Assembly (NCBI GenBank): GCA_021534775.1
Contig: GCA_021534775.1_4809.1
Length of the DNA: 30,283 bases
Origin: a phage
Reading direction: 5' to 3' (one strand)
Positions 6,275 through 22,419 of the stretch are shown here, one piece after another (position 1 is the first letter of the stretch; the number at the start of each line of letters is the position of its first letter). The notes under the pieces were generated by a model. That model ran no database searches. It saw only the letters and a list, made by a program, of their open reading frames with translations, and was not told where the DNA came from. A program made the position numbers and the translations under genes.

Positions 6275-6763
6275 CTAGTGGCGGGAGAATTGCTCACCTT
6301 CTTTGGCCGCCTCTCCAAAATCCTTGTAGAAATCGTCCATGGAACGGCCCATTTTACTATTGCCGTTTTCATCAATCATCGTGATGCCGTAGATGATATT
6401 CAGTTCACGAATAGCATTAAGCTTGGCTGACGCCGCGACTTCTGGATCACGCACAAGCTTGACCAAATTGTGAATTGCACCTTTTACGCTCCACAAATCC
6501 TTGAGTGGCATCTCTTCCATACGCTTTTTGAAGCGCATCTTGTAGTATGGATTGCGTTGCGTGCAAAGGATTCGCTGGCCAGTGTAGTTATCCGTTGCAA
6601 CTTCCATTCCAAATACTAGTGCAAAAGCTGCGCGCATGTCATGACCCTGAATAACAAGGTCAATGAACTCATCGAATAAAGCCTGATTGTGCTCTGCGAA
6701 TCGCGGGTCTTCAAAGTCTTCAGGCATCGCTACATAATCTTGACTCATAGTGCAAAATCCCAT
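6275..6763 (-). CDS. Hypothetical protein (162 aa; start may be 6748)
   Basis: Minus-strand ORF. Both candidate ATGs are created by the motif (the reverse complement of CAT in cATAGTGCAAAT). Confidence 0.55.
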   Translation of the reverse strand: MGFCTMSQDYVAMPEDFEDPRFAEHNQALFDEFIDLVIQGHDMRAAFALVFGMEVATDNYTGQRILCTQRNPYYKMRFKKRMEEMPLKDLWSVKGAIHNLVKLVRDPEVAASAKLNAIRELNIIYGITMIDENGNSKMGRSMDDFYKDFGEAAKEGEQFSRH

Positions 6764-6783
6764 AGTGCAAATTAATAGTGTGA

Positions 6784-6812
6784 ATTATACAATGGATGAA
6801 CATTATATTCAA
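6784..6812 (-). promoter_or_regulatory. Sigma70-like promoter for gene 6275-6763
   Basis: Minus strand reads TTGAAT, 17-nt spacer, TATAAT; the -10 and 5'UTR overlap the three tandem motif copies. Confidence 0.5.
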
Positions 6813-6976
6813 GTGCAGATTGATGTTCATTATGGCTATAAACGTACACAAATCATAATGCTGCGTGGATTGCGGACCGTGGTGCGTGGTGTACTGTTTG
6901 ATACGTATAAAAGAAATCCATCCCTTTCGCCGCTTGTTATGCAAATCAATGACTTAGCCGCTGCTGGCTGGTTGAA

Positions 6977-7341
6977 GCGTATCATGACGTATCATCCGTA
7001 TTGCCGCAAGTCTTTGTTTTTACTTATATCTTACGGATGATACGTTAAATATATAAATTAACATAAGTATGAGGATATGAAAAAAATTAATATAAATGTT
7101 TTTAAAATGGAGTTAATTAATTTTTCGAATTCTATATATAACGATGCTCAGTTTTATCCGTATCATCCGTAAGATTAATGTACAAGCCAGGCGCGGCAAG
7201 GGCTGTACACTCTTACGGATAGAAAACCATGACGTATCATGACGTAAGGGTGTACCACTTTTGAAAATAGGAATCCAGGAACGGCGCGGCCTGCGGCCAT
7301 GATACGCTTAATTTTTAACCGTATTTTAGGCGTATCAAATG
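6977..7341. repeat. Cluster of direct and inverted repeats flanking an AT-rich core
   Basis: Perfect 15-bp inverted repeat cttacggatgatacg (7030-7044) / cgtatcatccgtaag (7159-7173) around an AT-rich segment of about 110 bp. Further copies at 6987-7000 and 7212-7249; GC-rich islets ccaggcgcggcaagggctg and ccaggaacggcgcggcctgcggcc. Confidence 0.65.
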
Positions 7342-7606
7342 TGTTCAAAACCACGTTTCACGACCCAAGAAAATCCAATCCATAGATAGAATCTAACAAA
7401 CACCACGGACCAATAGCCATACACTATTAAAATATTAACAATCCTGTTTATATATATTTCTAAATATTTCCGCACAATTAATAAATAAAACATCACCTCA
7501 TAATTATTCCATCGCAAAACACGACCCAAACGACAAAAGGCCGCATAAAGCGACCCATTGCACACATTCCATTCTTCGAAACACGTAAACGAGTGTTCTT
7601 TATCCG

Positions 7607-8140
7607 CTACAATTTAGGCATAAATCCTTTGTCAGTCCGCCTTTTTATCTCTCCCTCTATCATTTTATTTGTGACTCTATAACCAATCCTTTCCAATTCC
7701 AGCAACACTTCCTTTTGGTATTTCTTTATTTTCACAATATCAACTGTGTCCCTCCAATAAGAAAATACCTTTTGAATTATTTTTTCATCCATTTTATATC
7801 TTGCAGTCGTCCTGTATTTCATTTTAAATATAGAGTTGATTGCGTCAGTCTTCAACCACTCGCCTCTCAACTCAGGGTGATCATCCCAAAGAGCTATGGC
7901 AAACTCTTGCGGGCTTTTACATCTTTTTCTAAGCTCAATTATATAGTCGACCGTTTTCGTTTTATTATCCAACCTTTCGCGGCAAACTGTGCACTCTTCC
8001 TTGAGCAGCCAGTCAACCTTGTTACTTCGCGACGTTGATTCACCATCCCTTCTGTACCTACCGCAAATGCTTATGCCTTCATTATCCAAGAAGTAATGCA
8101 AGTCTTTAGAGTATTTCGCTTTACGCCAAAAGCCGCCCAT
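7607..8140 (-). CDS. Hypothetical protein (177 aa), AT-rich composition
   Basis: Strong RBS aaggaggg; TGATG stop/start overlap with the upstream gene; Cys pairs (CGRY...CTVC) suggest possible zinc binding. Confidence 0.55.
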   Translation of the reverse strand: MGGFWRKAKYSKDLHYFLDNEGISICGRYRRDGESTSRSNKVDWLLKEECTVCRERLDNKTKTVDYIIELRKRCKSPQEFAIALWDDHPELRGEWLKTDAINSIFKMKYRTTARYKMDEKIIQKVFSYWRDTVDIVKIKKYQKEVLLELERIGYRVTNKMIEGEIKRRTDKGFMPKL

Positions 8141-8559
8141 CACCCCTCCTTAACGACCCGATAAGCAACAATCTTTGCACCAGTCGGGCTTGTGACTTTA
8201 TCCCATGTCAAACTATCCGAAGGAACGGCCTCTTTTGATTTATAACCGTTGAGTAATTCAAACTCAACCATCTTCCCAGGCACCGGATTTTCGCCGCCAA
8301 ACCACACGGTCCACGCATCCTCCTTAATCGGTACATTGCACTCCTTGTATTTCTCAACAGCCTCGCTAAAAAGCTTTATAACATCTTCAGCGGCTTTGAT
8401 GCGCTCGCGGTATTGCTCAATCTCTTTTGTTAGCGACTCATTAAGCTTGAGCAGTGATTCATAGTCCTCATATTCAACGTAGCCGCCTTCATCGTCCTTT
8501 ACAACTTCGCAGGTGCAAGCGTGCTGCGTGCAATAATCAACATCATAACGTTGTGTCAT
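8140..8559 (-). CDS. Hypothetical protein with a C-terminal GG-x-NPVPGK domain
   Basis: ORF with internal start MTQRYD overlapping the upstream stop; C-terminal about 55 aa paralogous to the C-terminus of 9714-10223. Confidence 0.6.
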   Translation of the reverse strand: MTQRYDVDYCTQHACTCEVVKDDEGGYVEYEDYESLLKLNESLTKEIEQYRERIKAAEDVIKLFSEAVEKYKECNVPIKEDAWTVWFGGENPVPGKMVEFELLNGYKSKEAVPSDSLTWDKVTSPTGAKIVAYRVVKEG

Positions 8560-9047
8560 TTTAAGCTCCAAGTATTTAACAGGGTGTTTCGTAAGTTCTG
8601 CACTTCTATCTTAAGCAGGTCAATTTGCAAGTCACGATGGGCCAGTTCAGCGGCGATGTCTGACTTGCTATAAAGTCCTTCATGCGTCATGGCATAGATG
8701 TGCCGCGTATAATAGCCGCCCTCGTCGAGTTGCTCGATGTCACGTTGCCCGACTGCGTATTGGTTATCGGTCGACGGCGCTTGGTCCTGGATTTTGATCG
8801 CTGCCACTTCCTTTAATGAATCGCGTGATGCGGGTCTGTTCTCTTCAAACATCTTTCCATCACCAATTTGCTTGCACCAAAGCGAATCGCCGATTGCGTA
8901 TCCCCACTGGCCGCGCCAATCGTTCCATGCAGGCTTCCCCTCATACGCCCAGATGGTTCCGTTAGAGTCACGCGCAACAAATCTTGCACGAGCGTCTATT
9001 TCGTATTCTTTACCTTCAAAATTGATGCGCTGCGTTTTGTTAGTCAT
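8556..9047 (-). CDS. Hypothetical protein (163 aa)
   Basis: ORF; start and stop overlaps with neighbours. Confidence 0.6.
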   Translation of the reverse strand: MTNKTQRINFEGKEYEIDARARFVARDSNGTIWAYEGKPAWNDWRGQWGYAIGDSLWCKQIGDGKMFEENRPASRDSLKEVAAIKIQDQAPSTDNQYAVGQRDIEQLDEGGYYTRHIYAMTHEGLYSKSDIAAELAHRDLQIDLLKIEVQNLRNTLLNTWSLK

Positions 9048-9376: not shown

Positions 9377-9714
9377 TTAACCTTCTCCAATTGGAATCTT
9401 GTTTCTGGAAAGCCTGCAACAAACATGTCACGGCCCTCGACATCACGCTTCACGAACCAGCGCATTCCGCTGACTACCGTGAAGACAATTTGCCTTCCAT
9501 CAATAATAAGTCCTTTTGCCTCATAAAGCAAATAGGTCTGACCGACCTTGAAGCTCGACAGCTCTTTGCTTGTGCTGGTGCACTTGAGCCGCCACTGGGT
9601 GAGATTGGATTCGCTCGCCTCGATGTCAACAACCTTACCGCGCAGCGGCGATGTGCGCTGAAGCTCTTGCATTTGCTCGTCGAACGTTAGCTCACGGCCT
9701 TCTTGCTCTTCCAT
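9373..9714 (-). CDS. Hypothetical protein (113 aa)
   Basis: ORF; overlap with neighbours. Confidence 0.6.
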   Translation of the reverse strand: MEEQEGRELTFDEQMQELQRTSPLRGKVVDIEASESNLTQWRLKCTSTSKELSSFKVGQTYLLYEAKGLIIDGRQIVFTVVSGMRWFVKRDVEGRDMFVAGFPETRFQLEKVK

Positions 9715-10223
9715 TATTCCTCCACGACTTTGTATTTGATGACATCGCCGTCGCGGTGGCGCTCAATCTTCTCCCAGCGCAATTCATTTGATGCAATCGG
9801 CTTTGTTGCTGTAGCGCCGTCGCGCAACATGTAAAGCACCTTCTTACCTGGGACTGGATTCAAGTCTCCACCATCCCAATCAATCCAACCGTCACTCGCC
9901 ATTGGCTTATCCTTCAAATGATCATACTTCTCACCGATGTGGGCGATTGGATGTTTGCTTTTGTAAAAGAATGCCAACGCGACGTCGTAGCACGGGTGAC
10001 TATGGGAAAGACAAACATCATCACACCAAAGCTCCATGGTGCGCGACTTAAGCGTCATCATATTAGTATACCACTCGATGGTGTAGTGGTCGTTAAGGTT
10101 GCCGACGATATAGAAGTTGCGACAAAACACCATATCGTTTTCCGACTTCTCGCGGCTATAACTTCTGATTGCGCCAGCCTTCACAGCCATTTCCAATACT
10201 GCTTCGAGTTGTTCGATTTTCAT
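9714..10223 (-). CDS. Hypothetical protein with a C-terminal GG-x-NPVPGK domain (paralogue of 8140-8559)
   Basis: C-terminus WDGGDLNPVPGKKVLYMLRDG...SNELRWEKI...IKYKVVEE aligns with WFGGENPVPGKMVEFELLNG...SDSLTWDKV...IVAYRVVKE. Confidence 0.6.
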   Translation of the reverse strand: MKIEQLEAVLEMAVKAGAIRSYSREKSENDMVFCRNFYIVGNLNDHYTIEWYTNMMTLKSRTMELWCDDVCLSHSHPCYDVALAFFYKSKHPIAHIGEKYDHLKDKPMASDGWIDWDGGDLNPVPGKKVLYMLRDGATATKPIASNELRWEKIERHRDGDVIKYKVVEE

Positions 10224-11005: not shown

Positions 11006-11033
11006 AATCACCTCTCCTTTGCTTGATGAACTA

Positions 11034-11061
11034 AGTATAATACAGGCAAATAAAAAGGCAA
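11034..11061 (-). promoter_or_regulatory. Sigma70-like promoter (TTGCCT, 16 nt, TATACT)
   Basis: Read on the minus strand; abuts the terminator hairpin. Confidence 0.5.
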
Positions 11062-11081
11062 GCATATAGCTCACCTTTTTG
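11053..11081 (-). terminator. Intrinsic terminator hairpin overlapping the promoter -35
   Basis: Minus-strand RNA: aaaaa GGUGAGC uauau GCUUGCC uuuuu (stem includes G-U pairs). Confidence 0.4.
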
Positions 11082-11083
11082 AA

Positions 11084-21420: not shown

Positions 21421-21579
21421 TGTTGACGTAAATTTACGAAAAATAAAACTGAAAATCAGTTTAATTAAAGTGGCATTGCCGCCATAGTTTTTAGTTGCTA
21501 CTGGCGGCGACTGAAGGCATAATTAAGTTATCCCAAACGGGGAATATAAAATAAACTAATTTATTTAAGGACTGTGAAC

Positions 21580-22419
21580 ATGGCCGAAGCAATCAAAGTA
21601 TTATCCAAAGAAGAAAAACAAGCAGCTGCAGCAGAACGTCGTCGCGTGGCTGAAGAAAAACGCCTGGCTAAAAAGAAAGAAGCCGAAGAAAAACGCCAGA
21701 AGCGTGAGCAGGAAAAACAAGCCAAGCGTGAAGAAGCTGCACTGAAACGCAAGCAGGCCGCTGATGAGAAAGCACAGAAACGTGCTGAAGAAGCAGCGAA
21801 GAAAGCCAAAGAGCGTGCAGAAAAAGCTGCTGCTAAGAAAGCAGAGCGTGAAGCCGCTAAAGCAGCGAAAGAAATCGAAAAGGCAAAGGCTAAAGAAGAA
21901 GCCAAGCGCCTGAAAGCTGAACAAGCTGCTGCTAAGAAAGCAGAGCGTGATCAAGCCCGTGCTGCTGCTAAAGCAGAGAAGGAAAAGGCTAAAGAAGAAG
22001 CGAAAGCCAAACGCAAGGCAGAGCGTGAAGCTGCTAAGATTGCGGCGAAAGAAGCTGCAGAACAGCAGAAAGAACAGCGTAAGCAAGAAGCTGAAGAACG
22101 TCGCAAGGCTATCGCAGAGCGTAAGGCTGCTAAAAAGGCAAACGGTCAGCGTCGTGCAAAAGCTACTCACTTCATCTACACTGGCAACGGCCTGAGCCAG
22201 CCGCAAGAGCATTCCACCCGTGGACGCGTTCTGGCGGCGATCAAAGAAGGCGAAGTTGGCGTGGCGCAGTCTATCGATGAGCTGGGCGAAAAAGTTAAAG
22301 ATCAACTGTTTGGTGCTTCCGTTCGCTCCTACCTGAGCAAGCTGGAAGAGATGGGCCACATCGAGTTTGTCGATGTTGAATCCAACGACGATGCCGAAGA
22401 CGGTGATCAAGCGGAATAA
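21580..22419 (+). CDS. K/E/A-rich charged protein with a globular C-terminal domain (possible winged-helix)
   Basis: About 190 aa of KAEKEAAK-type low-complexity charged helix, then RGRVLAAIKEGEVGVAQSIDELGEKVKDQLFGASVRSYLSKLEEMGHIE; start taken at the ATG with RBS aagga rather than the track GTG at 21574. Confidence 0.65.
   Translation: MAEAIKVLSKEEKQAAAAERRRVAEEKRLAKKKEAEEKRQKREQEKQAKREEAALKRKQAADEKAQKRAEEAAKKAKERAEKAAAKKAEREAAKAAKEIEKAKAKEEAKRLKAEQAAAKKAERDQARAAAKAEKEKAKEEAKAKRKAEREAAKIAAKEAAEQQKEQRKQEAEERRKAIAERKAAKKANGQRRAKATHFIYTGNGLSQPQEHSTRGRVLAAIKEGEVGVAQSIDELGEKVKDQLFGASVRSYLSKLEEMGHIEFVDVESNDDAEDGDQAE

What the first reader, a model, noticed from the sequence alone, without database searches (positions are those of the whole stretch)
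7607..8140. AT-rich gene at the distal end of the minus operon, beside the inverted-repeat region
Codon composition of 7607-8140 is markedly more AT-rich than its neighbours, which suggests more recent acquisition. The protein has Cys pairs but no motif I can assign. It is translationally coupled to the upstream gene (TGATG), so it is expressed as part of the operon. A free-standing nuclease is one possibility, but I see no clear HNH or GIY-YIG motif.
Basis: partly seen in the sequence, partly recalled or inferred. Interest (0 to 1): 0.4.

Follow-up and report, generated by a model that had tools for sequence, protein, structure and literature searches.

The report
Polymorphic zinc-binding early gene, not nuclease
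The AT-rich gene is a real gene found in every Wifcevirus phage: an uncharacterised small zinc-binding phage protein with a genus-specific basic helical tail, present as three very different interchangeable versions, with no sign of being a nuclease or a recent import.

Summary
The window is a Wifcevirus-type E. coli phage contig. Positions 7607-8140 (minus strand) encode a 177-aa protein with GC 0.39, against 0.46-0.51 in its neighbours. Its ATG overlaps the upstream stop (TGATG) behind an AGGAGG. A conserved terminator hairpin follows, and the terminal-repeat boundary lies about 500 bp downstream.

The interpretation mostly fails. A homologue occupies the same slot in all 29 Wifcevirus records, and it is equally AT-rich in each (0.38-0.41). 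There are three deeply diverged allele classes (about 85%, 39% and 28% identity). DNA homology to relatives breaks within a few bases of the CDS borders. Within each class dN/dS is 0.08-0.20.

The AT-richness sits in the C-terminal domain in every class and increases towards the terminal-repeat boundary. It therefore looks positional or compositional, not a mark of recent arrival.

Residues 1-57 match PHROG 2358 (function unknown). His15, Cys26, Cys50 and Cys53 are invariant in 114 homologues. Most homologues are 60-80-aa stand-alone early proteins of Pbunavirus, lambdoid and Mu-like phages. The basic helical C-domain has no homologue outside the genus.

No family library, solved-structure sequence or fold search gave a nuclease or any other significant match.

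Best reading: a non-enzymatic zinc-stabilised binding protein. Its function is unknown. Modest interest.

The parts
7607..8140 (-). Coding sequence of the 177-aa protein (stop codon 7607-7609). It is a class-1 allele of the polymorphic Wifcevirus gene.
   Evidence: ORF list and sequence. Homologue in 29 of 29 Wifcevirus records. dN/dS is 0.11-0.20 within class 1. phrog_2358 match at E = 1.5e-14.
7970..8140 (-). N-terminal domain, residues 1-57. This is the putative His-Cys3 zinc module shared with stand-alone small phage proteins. GC is 0.47.
   Evidence: Profile hits to 60-80-aa proteins cover only profile positions ~1-70. H15, C26, C50 and C53 are invariant in 114 sequences. The AF2 domain model has pLDDT 73, with beta strands followed by a helix from residue 51. 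GC.
8096..8098 (-). Codon for His15, putative zinc ligand.
   Evidence: Invariant in alignments A1-A4. Codon 'cat' read.
8063..8065 (-). Codon for Cys26, putative zinc ligand, in the SxCG motif.
   Evidence: Invariant. Codon 'tgc' read.
7982..7993 (-). Codons for Cys50-x-x-Cys53, the putative zinc knuckle at the start of the long basic helix.
   Evidence: Invariant. Helix 51-71/73 in both models.
7610..7969 (-). C-terminal basic helical domain, residues 58-177. It is restricted to Wifcevirus and is the AT-rich part of the gene (GC 0.355).
   Evidence: AF2 pLDDT is mostly 80-94 from about residue 90, in five or six helices. No hit to this part outside Wifcevirus among 1.84 billion representatives. 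Net charge +10. GC. Residues conserved across all classes include F105, K106, Y109, T111, R114, M117, E148 and R151.
8138..8151 (-). Translation-initiation and coupling signals: AAGGAGG at 8151-8145, and the TGATG overlap of the upstream stop (8142-8140) with the start (8140-8138).
   Evidence: Sequence. The same one-base overlap is annotated in eight relatives.
8136..8172 (-). Conserved ~35-nt junction: the 3' end of the upstream gene plus the ribosome-binding site and start codon. DNA homology to phages carrying other alleles stops here, so it is the upstream recombination border.
   Evidence: blastn segments end at 8136 in WFC, Eco4M-7, CWP003, Mansfield, Bas99 and FEC19, at 90-100% identity.
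7528..7556 (-). Intrinsic-terminator-like hairpin (GGTCGC/GCGGCC stem) with a T-run, about 50 nt after the stop. It marks the end of the operon.
   Evidence: Terminator scan. Conserved in six relatives. In RCIP0319 a G-to-A change turns the G-U pair into an A-U pair.
7595..7608 (-). Downstream recombination border. Homology to class-2 phages resumes within about 5 nt of the stop codon and runs at 94.6-98.4% identity down to about 5200.

Best explanation
What it is. The gene encodes the Wifcevirus long form of a widespread, uncharacterised small phage protein family (PHROG 2358).

Shown:
- It is a real gene under purifying selection.
- It is the last cistron of the primase-containing minus-strand operon, translationally coupled to its neighbour and followed by a conserved terminator.
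- It sits about 500 bp from the direct-terminal-repeat boundary.
- It occupies a fixed slot in every Wifcevirus, as three deeply diverged alleles exchanged by recombination whose breakpoints fall at the CDS borders.

Inferred:
- Residues 1-57 fold as a beta-hairpin plus helix held by one zinc ion, through His15, Cys26, Cys50 and Cys53.
- The basic helix that starts at the CxxC, together with the basic genus-specific helical domain (residues 58-177, net charge +10), forms a binding surface.
- The protein acts by binding, not by catalysis. The most likely target is a nucleic acid or nucleoprotein. The role would be regulatory or host takeover in the early/middle phase.
- The allele classes would then represent alternative specificities.
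- The AT-richness reflects the Lys/Ile/Arg(AGR)-rich C-domain and the AT-rich trough around the terminal-repeat boundary. It does not reflect recent import.
For: Real gene.
- dN/dS is 0.08-0.20 within each class.
- It is present in 29 of 29 records.

Operon end.
- TGATG overlap and AGGAGG.
- Conserved hairpin.
- In Bas99 the homologue closes the gene string that starts at the primase.
- The PhageTerm-predicted end of phage Mansfield aligns to window ~7108. WFC has a ~3.7-kb terminal repeat (PMC6563267).

Cassette behaviour.
- Homology breaks at 8136 and 7608. Identity to WFC is 98.4% in the downstream flank but only 38% at protein level in the gene.
- Allele class is decoupled from the lineage of the adjacent terS-like gene.

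Zinc module.
- H15, C26, C50 and C53 are the only invariant residues in 114 homologues. W5 is nearly invariant.
- The family match to phrog_2358 is significant.
- The domain occurs alone, duplicated, or fused at either end of other proteins.

Binding rather than catalysis.
- No other conserved polar catalytic residues are seen.
- pI is 8.9-9.6 in all alleles, with the charge lying after the CxxC.
- 78% of the small homologues carry at least +3 net charge in the 15 residues after the CxxC.
- No enzyme family or enzyme fold was hit.

Accessory role.
- Homologues lie in the nin and exo-xis regions of lambdoid prophages, in Mu-like early regions and in a Pbunavirus early-type operon.
- None has a constant neighbour. 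The commonest neighbour cluster occurs in 10 of 38 distinct neighbourhoods.

Composition.
- The C-domain has GC 0.31-0.38 and the N-domain 0.40-0.50, in all three classes.
Against: - No experiment and no annotated homologue exists, so the function is inferred from anatomy alone.
- Zinc binding was not verified. Model coordinates could not be inspected, and the N-domain model has only moderate confidence (pLDDT 73; below 50 in the full-length model).
- A basic charge is weak evidence for nucleic-acid binding.
- The helical domain gave no HTH-specific or other specific structural match.
- Deep allelic polymorphism fits an arms race with a host protein at least as well as it fits nucleic-acid binding.
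- The adjacent non-coding DNA does not co-vary with allele class. Classes 1 and 2 share it, and RCIP0319 (class 1) has a different version. There are therefore no evident cognate sites next door.
Confidence: 0.4

Rival explanations
1. It is an anti-defence or host-factor inhibitor. The zinc module is a scaffold and the variable helical domain binds and blocks a polymorphic host protein, such as a defence-system component or part of the transcription/replication machinery. The three alleles would be kept by frequency-dependent selection in an arms race.
For: - Three alleles at 28-39% identity sit in one slot and are shuffled independently of the flanks.
- The gene is small, non-enzymatic, early-region and accessory.
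- Stand-alone homologues lie in the nin, exo-xis and Mu early accessory regions, which from general knowledge hold many host-modulating genes. One lies about 2 kb from a Lar-like restriction-alleviation gene.
- Wifceviruses show considerable resistance to restriction in K-12 (PMC11990801).
Against: - There is no similarity to any known anti-defence protein. PADLOC holds defence models only, so its silence says little here.
- The gene is the last cistron of a long operon, not at a leading end.
- Within classes selection is purifying (dN/dS 0.08-0.20) with no sign of positive selection at the whole-gene level.
- Neighbouring early genes are also mosaic, so the polymorphism may be regional and not target-driven.
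Confidence: 0.3
2. It is a nuclease. Either it is a degenerate HNH-type (beta-beta-alpha-metal) free-standing homing endonuclease, or it is a terminase-associated cutter acting at the nearby terminal-repeat boundary, by analogy with HK97 gp74.
For: - The N-domain has a hairpin-plus-helix topology with a His and a CxxC.
- The gene lies about 500 bp from the terminal-repeat boundary and about 850 bp upstream of the terS-like gene.
- One distant homologue gave a faint HNH_5 hit, E = 0.12.
Against: - No HNH or GIY-YIG hit in any of the 17 family members, even at E <= 10.
- Only one His is invariant, and there is no conserved Asn or second His.
- No nuclease appears among significant fold matches.
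- The gene is present in 29 of 29 genomes, not sporadically.
- Stand-alone homologues are not next to terminase genes, and in Pbunavirus 14-1 the homologue (ORF85) lies among small hypothetical genes with no annotated terminase in the stretch examined.
Confidence: 0.04
3. It is a recently acquired foreign gene (a moron) whose AT-rich composition betrays an AT-rich donor.
For: - GC is 0.39 against 0.46 for the window, with AGR and AAA codon bias.
- Homology borders are sharp.
- It has its own terminator.
Against: - The slot is filled in every Wifcevirus, and the low GC is shared by all three alleles even though their DNA no longer aligns.
- The N-domain has genome-typical GC.
- There is no promoter of its own. 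The gene is coupled to the upstream cistron.
- No full-length homologue was found outside Wifcevirus-sized contigs among 5.8 billion clusters, so no donor is visible.
Confidence: 0.06
4. The C-terminal domain arose inside the lineage by extension of an ancestral ~65-aa zinc protein into the AT-rich DNA next to the genome terminus. This is a de novo or read-through origin and would explain both its composition and its lack of relatives.
For: - Stand-alone 60-80-aa forms predominate elsewhere, including Pbunavirus, a distant relative of Wifcevirus (PMC11990801).
- The C-domain has no homologue outside the genus.
- Its GC (0.31-0.38) matches the adjacent non-coding DNA (0.35-0.39).
Against: - The domain is confidently predicted as a folded helical bundle and keeps conserved residues across alleles at 28% identity, so any such origin is ancient.
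- Orthology with 14-1 ORF85 could not be shown. There is no synteny and tblastn found nothing.
- A lost or unsampled donor cannot be excluded.
- This is a statement about origin, not function, so it is compatible with the best explanation.
Confidence: 0.15

Closest known systems
PHROG 2358 (phage protein family, function unknown), for example Pseudomonas phage 14-1 ORF85 (69 aa) and 60-80-aa proteins of lambdoid and Mu-like prophages
   Same: - The N-terminal ~57 residues match. hmmscan gives E = 1.5e-14 for the window protein and 1e-12 to 1e-20 for the small proteins.
- All share the motif G-W-x-x-P...K-x-H-Y-F...S-L-C-G-K-W...D-C-x-x-C, with invariant H, C, C, C.
- All are early-region accessory genes, often coupled to the upstream cistron.
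   Different: - The window protein carries a 120-residue basic helical C-terminal domain found only in Wifcevirus.
- The class-1 allele departs from family consensus at near-invariant positions: G4 to F, P8 to A, K13 to D, W29 to Y.
Class-1 alleles in Escherichia phages vB_EcoM-Ro157lw, EC150, TH32 and RCIP0319 (annotated 'hypothetical protein')
   Same: Same length, same slot and same one-base overlap. Protein identity is 83-87%. The nearest database cluster is 89% identical.
   Different: dS is 0.44-1.0 against these phages. That is higher than for the adjacent terS-like gene in the same pairs (0.28-0.33).
Small zinc-finger phage regulators: P2 Ogr / P4 Delta (bind RNA polymerase) and Mu Com (binds mom mRNA). 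Comparison drawn from general knowledge.
   Same: Size class, a single structural zinc site, a basic character, and action by binding rather than catalysis. This is what the protein may work like.
   Different: No sequence similarity, and no Pfam hit including Ogr_Delta. The ligand pattern is H-x10-C-x23-C-x2-C, not C4. Those proteins lack the helical C-domain.
HNH / GIY-YIG free-standing homing endonucleases, and the HK97 gp74-type HNH packaging factor
   Same: A small gene with Cys/His residues, located near the terminase gene and the genome end.
   Different: No motif, no family hit and no fold hit. The gene is universally present rather than sporadic.
Gene-sized mosaic modules of phage genomes, such as modular exchange in lambdoid phages and the shuffled early cassettes of T4-type phages (general knowledge)
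   Same: Very different alleles are exchanged between near-identical genomes. Breakpoints fall at gene borders and at a short conserved junction, 8136-8172.
   Different: Here all the alleles are homologous to one another, so this is one gene family kept in one slot rather than unrelated genes replacing each other.

Membership tests
PHROG 2358 | Significant match to the family profile | tested here: met
   E = 1.5e-14, 55 bits, residues 5-155 against profile positions 11-142 of 146. Distant stand-alone homologues hit the same profile at 1e-12 to 1e-20.
PHROG 2358 | Conserved H...C...CxxC signature and the G-W motif | tested here: met
   H15, C26, C50 and C53 are invariant in 114 sequences. W5 is present in 96%.
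Structural zinc-binding module (zinc-ribbon / treble-clef-like) | Four Cys/His ligands, conserved and brought together in the fold; metal bound | tested here: inconclusive
HNH endonuclease | Match to HNH profiles; catalytic His plus Asn plus a second His/Asn on a beta-beta-alpha-metal core | tested here: not met
GIY-YIG endonuclease | GIY and YIG motifs with conserved Arg and Glu; profile match | tested here: not met
   No profile hit. No such motifs among the conserved columns.
Free-standing homing endonuclease gene / mobile insertion | Sporadic presence or absence between otherwise collinear relatives | tested here: not met
   The same 29 Wifcevirus records match the flanks and the protein.
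Recently acquired moron | Atypical composition limited to this genome or lineage; own promoter and terminator; patchy distribution | tested here: not met
   All alleles share the low GC. The gene is coupled to the upstream cistron. It is present throughout the genus. Only the terminator criterion is met.
Kunitz/BPTI fold | Similarity to the Kunitz family as a whole | tested here: not met
DUF1492 (PF07374) | Score above the Pfam gathering threshold | tested here: not met
   Only class-3 alleles hit, at 13.5-17.8 bits against a cutoff of 21.5, and only on the first ~60 profile positions. The window protein does not hit.
Known anti-phage defence proteins (PADLOC) | Profile match | tested here: not met
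   No hit for any of the three alleles.

The most novel reading that the evidence does not exclude
The His-Cys3 module of PHROG 2358 is a previously undescribed zinc-binding domain. It has no Pfam or NCBIfam model and no solved relative. Phages as different as Pbunavirus, Wifcevirus, lambdoid and Mu-like elements would use it as a portable targeting module against a host factor. In Wifcevirus it gained a lineage-born, AT-rich helical effector domain, and the three ancient alleles are kept by balancing selection in an arms race with host immunity.
Probability: 0.2. Interest if true: 0.55.

Novelty: new member of a known kind. Interest (0 to 1): 0.3.

Why it matters
As it stands this is one more hypothetical early phage gene, so its direct importance is modest. 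Three points make it usable.

1. It defines a compact, widespread His-Cys3 domain that no curated domain library covers. Homologues are easy to reach experimentally, for example in the BASEL phages Bas98-101, in phage 14-1 and in E. coli prophages.
2. The Wifcevirus locus is a clean natural allele-swap experiment. Three versions at 28-39% identity sit in genomes whose flanks are up to 98% identical. That design is well suited to mapping a specificity determinant, whether for host range, defence evasion or regulation.
3. It is a caution for composition-based inference. Here AT-richness follows a protein domain and the proximity of the genome terminus, not the age of the gene.

Tried and rejected
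- afdb50 Foldseek was not available on the machine.
- DUF1492. The hits are below threshold and occur in class 3 only.
- Gene fission or fusion. The genes downstream of the stand-alone homologues in 14-1 and in a lambdoid prophage are not related to the C-domain.
- Synteny with Pbunavirus. tblastn of thirteen 14-1 proteins against the window found nothing, so orthology with ORF85 is unproven.
- Conserved partner gene. Among 38 distinct neighbourhoods from 91 viral loci, no neighbour cluster occurs in more than 10. The commonest neighbours are themselves of unknown function.
- Second copy in the window. None found.
- Known RNA in or beside the gene. No Rfam match in 6600-8300.
- Coding potential of the downstream ORFs 7335-7565 and 7175-7354. 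Relatives show single-base indels and a 21-nt deletion, so the region is treated as non-coding.
- Co-variation of allele class with the adjacent non-coding DNA, as a hint of cognate binding sites. Not seen.
- Literature. Nothing on this gene or on PHROG 2358.
- The first attempt to seed a viral-contig scan with the 114-sequence alignment failed because it had no conserved stretch.

Full report
**Identity of the window**

The region 6200-9400 matches 29 records of Escherichia/Shigella phages of the genus Wifcevirus at 90-97% identity over the parts that align. The exact protein is on record from a 30,283-bp E. coli-labelled contig. In the well-annotated relative Bas99, the homologue of the gene under study (Bas99_0089) is the last gene of a long same-strand string that begins with a DNA primase and contains about 30 small hypothetical genes.

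Phage Mansfield's PhageTerm-predicted left physical end aligns to window position ~7108. Its 3,673-bp direct terminal repeat runs from there towards lower window coordinates, across a terS-like gene at 6275-6763. WFC was reported with a terminal repeat of about 3.7 kb (PMC6563267). The gene is therefore the last unique gene before the right terminal repeat.

**Checking the observation**

- The ORF is 7607-8143(-) from a GTG. The ATG at 8140, four bases after AGGAGG (8150-8145), is the start. All homologues begin MG.
- The upstream stop TGA (8142-8140) shares its A with the ATG, giving TGATG. Eight annotated relatives keep this one-base overlap.
- GC is 0.391, against 0.458-0.506 for the five genes upstream and 0.459 for the window.
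- That is third lowest of 61 ORFs (z = -1.6). Only 4.2% of equal-sized windows are as AT-rich.
- Whole-gene GC3 is ordinary (rank 21 of 61), but codon choice is not. Arg is AGR in 13 of 17 codons against 19% upstream. Lys is AAA in 17 of 23 against 35% upstream.
- GC falls along the gene: 0.455, 0.393, 0.326 by thirds.
- There is one CxxC plus two single Cys, not several pairs.
- Inverted repeats and CGTATCAT octamers lie at ~6975-7340.

**Distribution among relatives**

tblastn finds a homologue at the same position in the same 29 records. They fall into three classes:
- about 83-87% identity: Ro157lw, EC150, TH32, RCIP0319;
- about 38-40% identity, 177 aa: WFC, Eco4M-7, F13, SP13, Bas100, TH35, CWP003 and others;
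- about 26-28% identity, 149 aa: ECML-117, FEC19, WFH, Mansfield, Bas98, Bas99, Bas101 and others.

So there is no presence/absence polymorphism.

DNA homology to phages with other alleles stops at 8136 on one side. On the other side it resumes at 7608 for class 2, with the downstream flank at 94.6-98.4% identity. For the class-3 phages Bas99 and FEC19 it resumes at ~7171-7175.

The adjacent terS-like gene splits the phages into two lineages, with dS <= 0.14 within each and 0.27-0.42 between them. All three allele classes occur with one of those lineages at dS <= 0.07. The alleles are therefore shuffled by recombination.

Within each class dN/dS is 0.08-0.20. Every allele is a functional gene under purifying selection.

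**Composition revisited**

All alleles have GC 0.38-0.41, while the 1.5 kb upstream has 0.48-0.50. Splitting each allele four residues after the CxxC gives:
- an N-terminal part with genome-typical GC (0.40-0.50);
- a C-terminal part at 0.31-0.38, with GC3 of 0.37-0.46.

This holds in all three classes. The adjacent non-coding DNA is 0.35-0.39.

The classes' DNA no longer aligns, so a foreign signature would have decayed. A persistent positional or functional bias explains the data better. It could come from the Lys/Ile/Arg-rich domain and from the AT-rich trough centred on the terminal-repeat boundary. This last step is an inference.

**Anatomy of the protein**

Across the three classes the invariant residues include W5, H15, Y16, F17, S24, C26, G27, C50 and C53, plus a set in the C-terminal half: F105, K106, Y109, T111, R114, M117, E148 and R151. 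C74 is not conserved.

An exhaustive HMMER profile search of 1.84 billion representatives returned:
- the three Wifcevirus classes;
- 33 further proteins, nearly all 60-110 aa, that match only profile positions ~1-70. One of them, the 959-aa repeat protein P0022, I judge to be a likely false positive.

Nothing outside the genus matches the C-terminal 120 residues.

A profile search with these small proteins recovered 152 unannotated homologues. In a 114-sequence alignment, H15, C26, C50 and C53 are the only invariant columns. This is strong evidence for a His-Cys3 metal site, although metal binding itself is inferred.

The window protein and the small proteins all hit PHROG 2358, which has no known function.

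The domain occurs in several arrangements: alone, in tandem (P0042), at the C-terminus of longer proteins (P0054, P0068, P0098, P0110), and at the N-terminus in Wifcevirus.

All alleles are basic (pI 8.9-9.6), and the charge lies after the CxxC. In the window protein the part after the CxxC has net charge +10. In 78% of the small homologues the 15 residues after the CxxC carry at least +3.

**Structure**

- AlphaFold2 on the 17-sequence family alignment gave a mean pLDDT of 69.5. The C-domain is a confident helical bundle (80-94) and the N-terminus is poorly defined.
- A model of residues 1-72 from the 114-sequence alignment reached pLDDT 73. It shows short strands followed by a long helix beginning at residue 51.
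- Foldseek against BFVD found nothing at E <= 0.001.
- AFDB was unavailable.
- No nuclease or other enzyme fold appears.
- Pfam, NCBIfam, PADLOC and PDB sequence searches are empty, apart from sub-threshold noise.
- A curious profile hit to two BPTI variants did not extend to another Kunitz domain and is dismissed.

**Context of the stand-alone homologues**

- About 250 Pbunavirus genomes carry a copy of roughly 56-69 aa. Pbunavirus is a distant relative of Wifcevirus (PMC11990801). An example is ORF85 of phage 14-1, in a string of small genes.
- In enterobacterial prophages the gene lies in three kinds of place: between lambda-P-like replication genes and the terminase genes (a nin-like region); beside an Ead/Ea22-like gene near the integrase (an exo-xis-like region); or after a Q-like antiterminator and an RNase T-like exonuclease. 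It usually overlaps the upstream gene by four bases.
- Among 91 viral-contig loci, 38 distinct neighbourhoods share no constant neighbour. The commonest cluster occurs in 10 of 38, and the commonest neighbours are themselves of unknown function.

The module therefore behaves as a free-standing accessory early gene.

**End of the operon**

A hairpin (GGTCGC/GCGGCC) with a T-run lies at 7556-7528. It is conserved in six relatives, and in RCIP0319 a change converts the G-U pair to an A-U pair.

The 430 bp between this hairpin and the terminal-repeat boundary shows single-base indels between relatives and is probably non-coding. It exists in at least three versions that do not track the gene's allele class. 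This argues against cognate binding sites next to the gene.

**Interpretation**

Shown:
- a real, universally present, highly polymorphic last cistron of the early/middle operon;
- a conserved H/C/C/C signature shared with a large family of small phage proteins;
- a genus-restricted basic helical domain;
- no nuclease features.

Inferred: a zinc-stabilised binding protein that acts non-catalytically. I give nucleic-acid or nucleoprotein binding in a regulatory or host-takeover role a confidence of 0.4. The chief rival, at 0.3, is a protein-protein inhibitor of a host or defence factor, with the three alleles maintained by an arms race. Nuclease (0.04) and recent foreign acquisition (0.06) are disfavoured. 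The idea that the C-domain was born within the lineage from AT-rich terminal DNA is compatible with either functional reading and remains speculative (0.15).

**Novelty and verdict**

The sequence is 83-89% identical to proteins already deposited as 'hypothetical', and the family is catalogued as PHROG 2358. It is a new member of a known but functionally unknown kind.

Interest is modest (0.3). What is useful is the definition of an uncurated His-Cys3 domain and a natural three-allele swap system in phages that can now be grown on E. coli K-12 derivatives.

Noticed in passing
window 6975-7340 (non-coding, GC 0.35-0.39): There are at least six copies of the octamer CGTATCAT / ATGATACG in both orientations. 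There are also a 27-nt inverted repeat (7018-7044 / 7159-7185) and an AT-rich palindrome (7082-7125). Together they bracket position ~7108, which aligns with the PhageTerm-predicted physical end of phage Mansfield. They are candidate terminase or terminal-repeat-boundary recognition sites.
   Followed up: partly
window 7109-7606 and the matching parts of L004, L018, L019, L002, L005, L008: The ~500 bp between the gene and the terminal-repeat boundary is itself mosaic. RCIP0319 carries a different sequence from ~7525 to ~7190, EC150 has a 21-nt deletion, and class-3 phages carry an unrelated 410-590-bp segment with small annotated ORFs. The coding (minus) strand here is strongly G+T-rich, with GC skew down to -0.36.
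   Followed up: partly
window 8140-8571(-) and 9714-10223(-): These two genes of the same operon share a ~60-aa C-terminal module (W..W.GG.NPVPGK...Y+VV; phrog_9174, phrog_11995 and phrog_16943, all of unknown function). The genes between them are mosaic among relatives.
   Followed up: no
window 6275-6763(-): The mechanical ORF starts at 6763, but all relatives start at MSQDYVAM, which corresponds to window 6748. Phage Mansfield annotates this gene as a terminase small subunit on HHpred evidence, whereas PHROGs calls it unknown (phrog_4783).
   Followed up: partly
window 21574-22419(+): An extreme AT skew (+0.54) marks a 281-aa ORF made largely of Ala/Glu/Lys/Arg low-complexity repeats (...AKKAEREAAKAAKE...), ending in a globular C-terminal ~80 residues. 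It looks like a highly charged coiled-coil-like protein of unknown role.
   Followed up: no
window 11006-11083(-): There is a ~78-nt gap in the operon with a sigma-70-like match (11061-11034). It corresponds in position to an intergenic gap in WFC that holds an annotated terminator. The last transcription unit may therefore start here and run about 3.5 kb to the terminator at 7538.
   Followed up: no
PDB search with alignment A4: The family consensus (HYF..SLCGKW.Y.G....N..S.DDC) resembles the BPTI core sequence (RYFYNAKAGLCQTFVYGG.RAKRNNFKSAEDC) at E = 0.005. The resemblance is specific to BPTI and not to Kunitz domains in general, so it was judged to be chance.
   Followed up: yes
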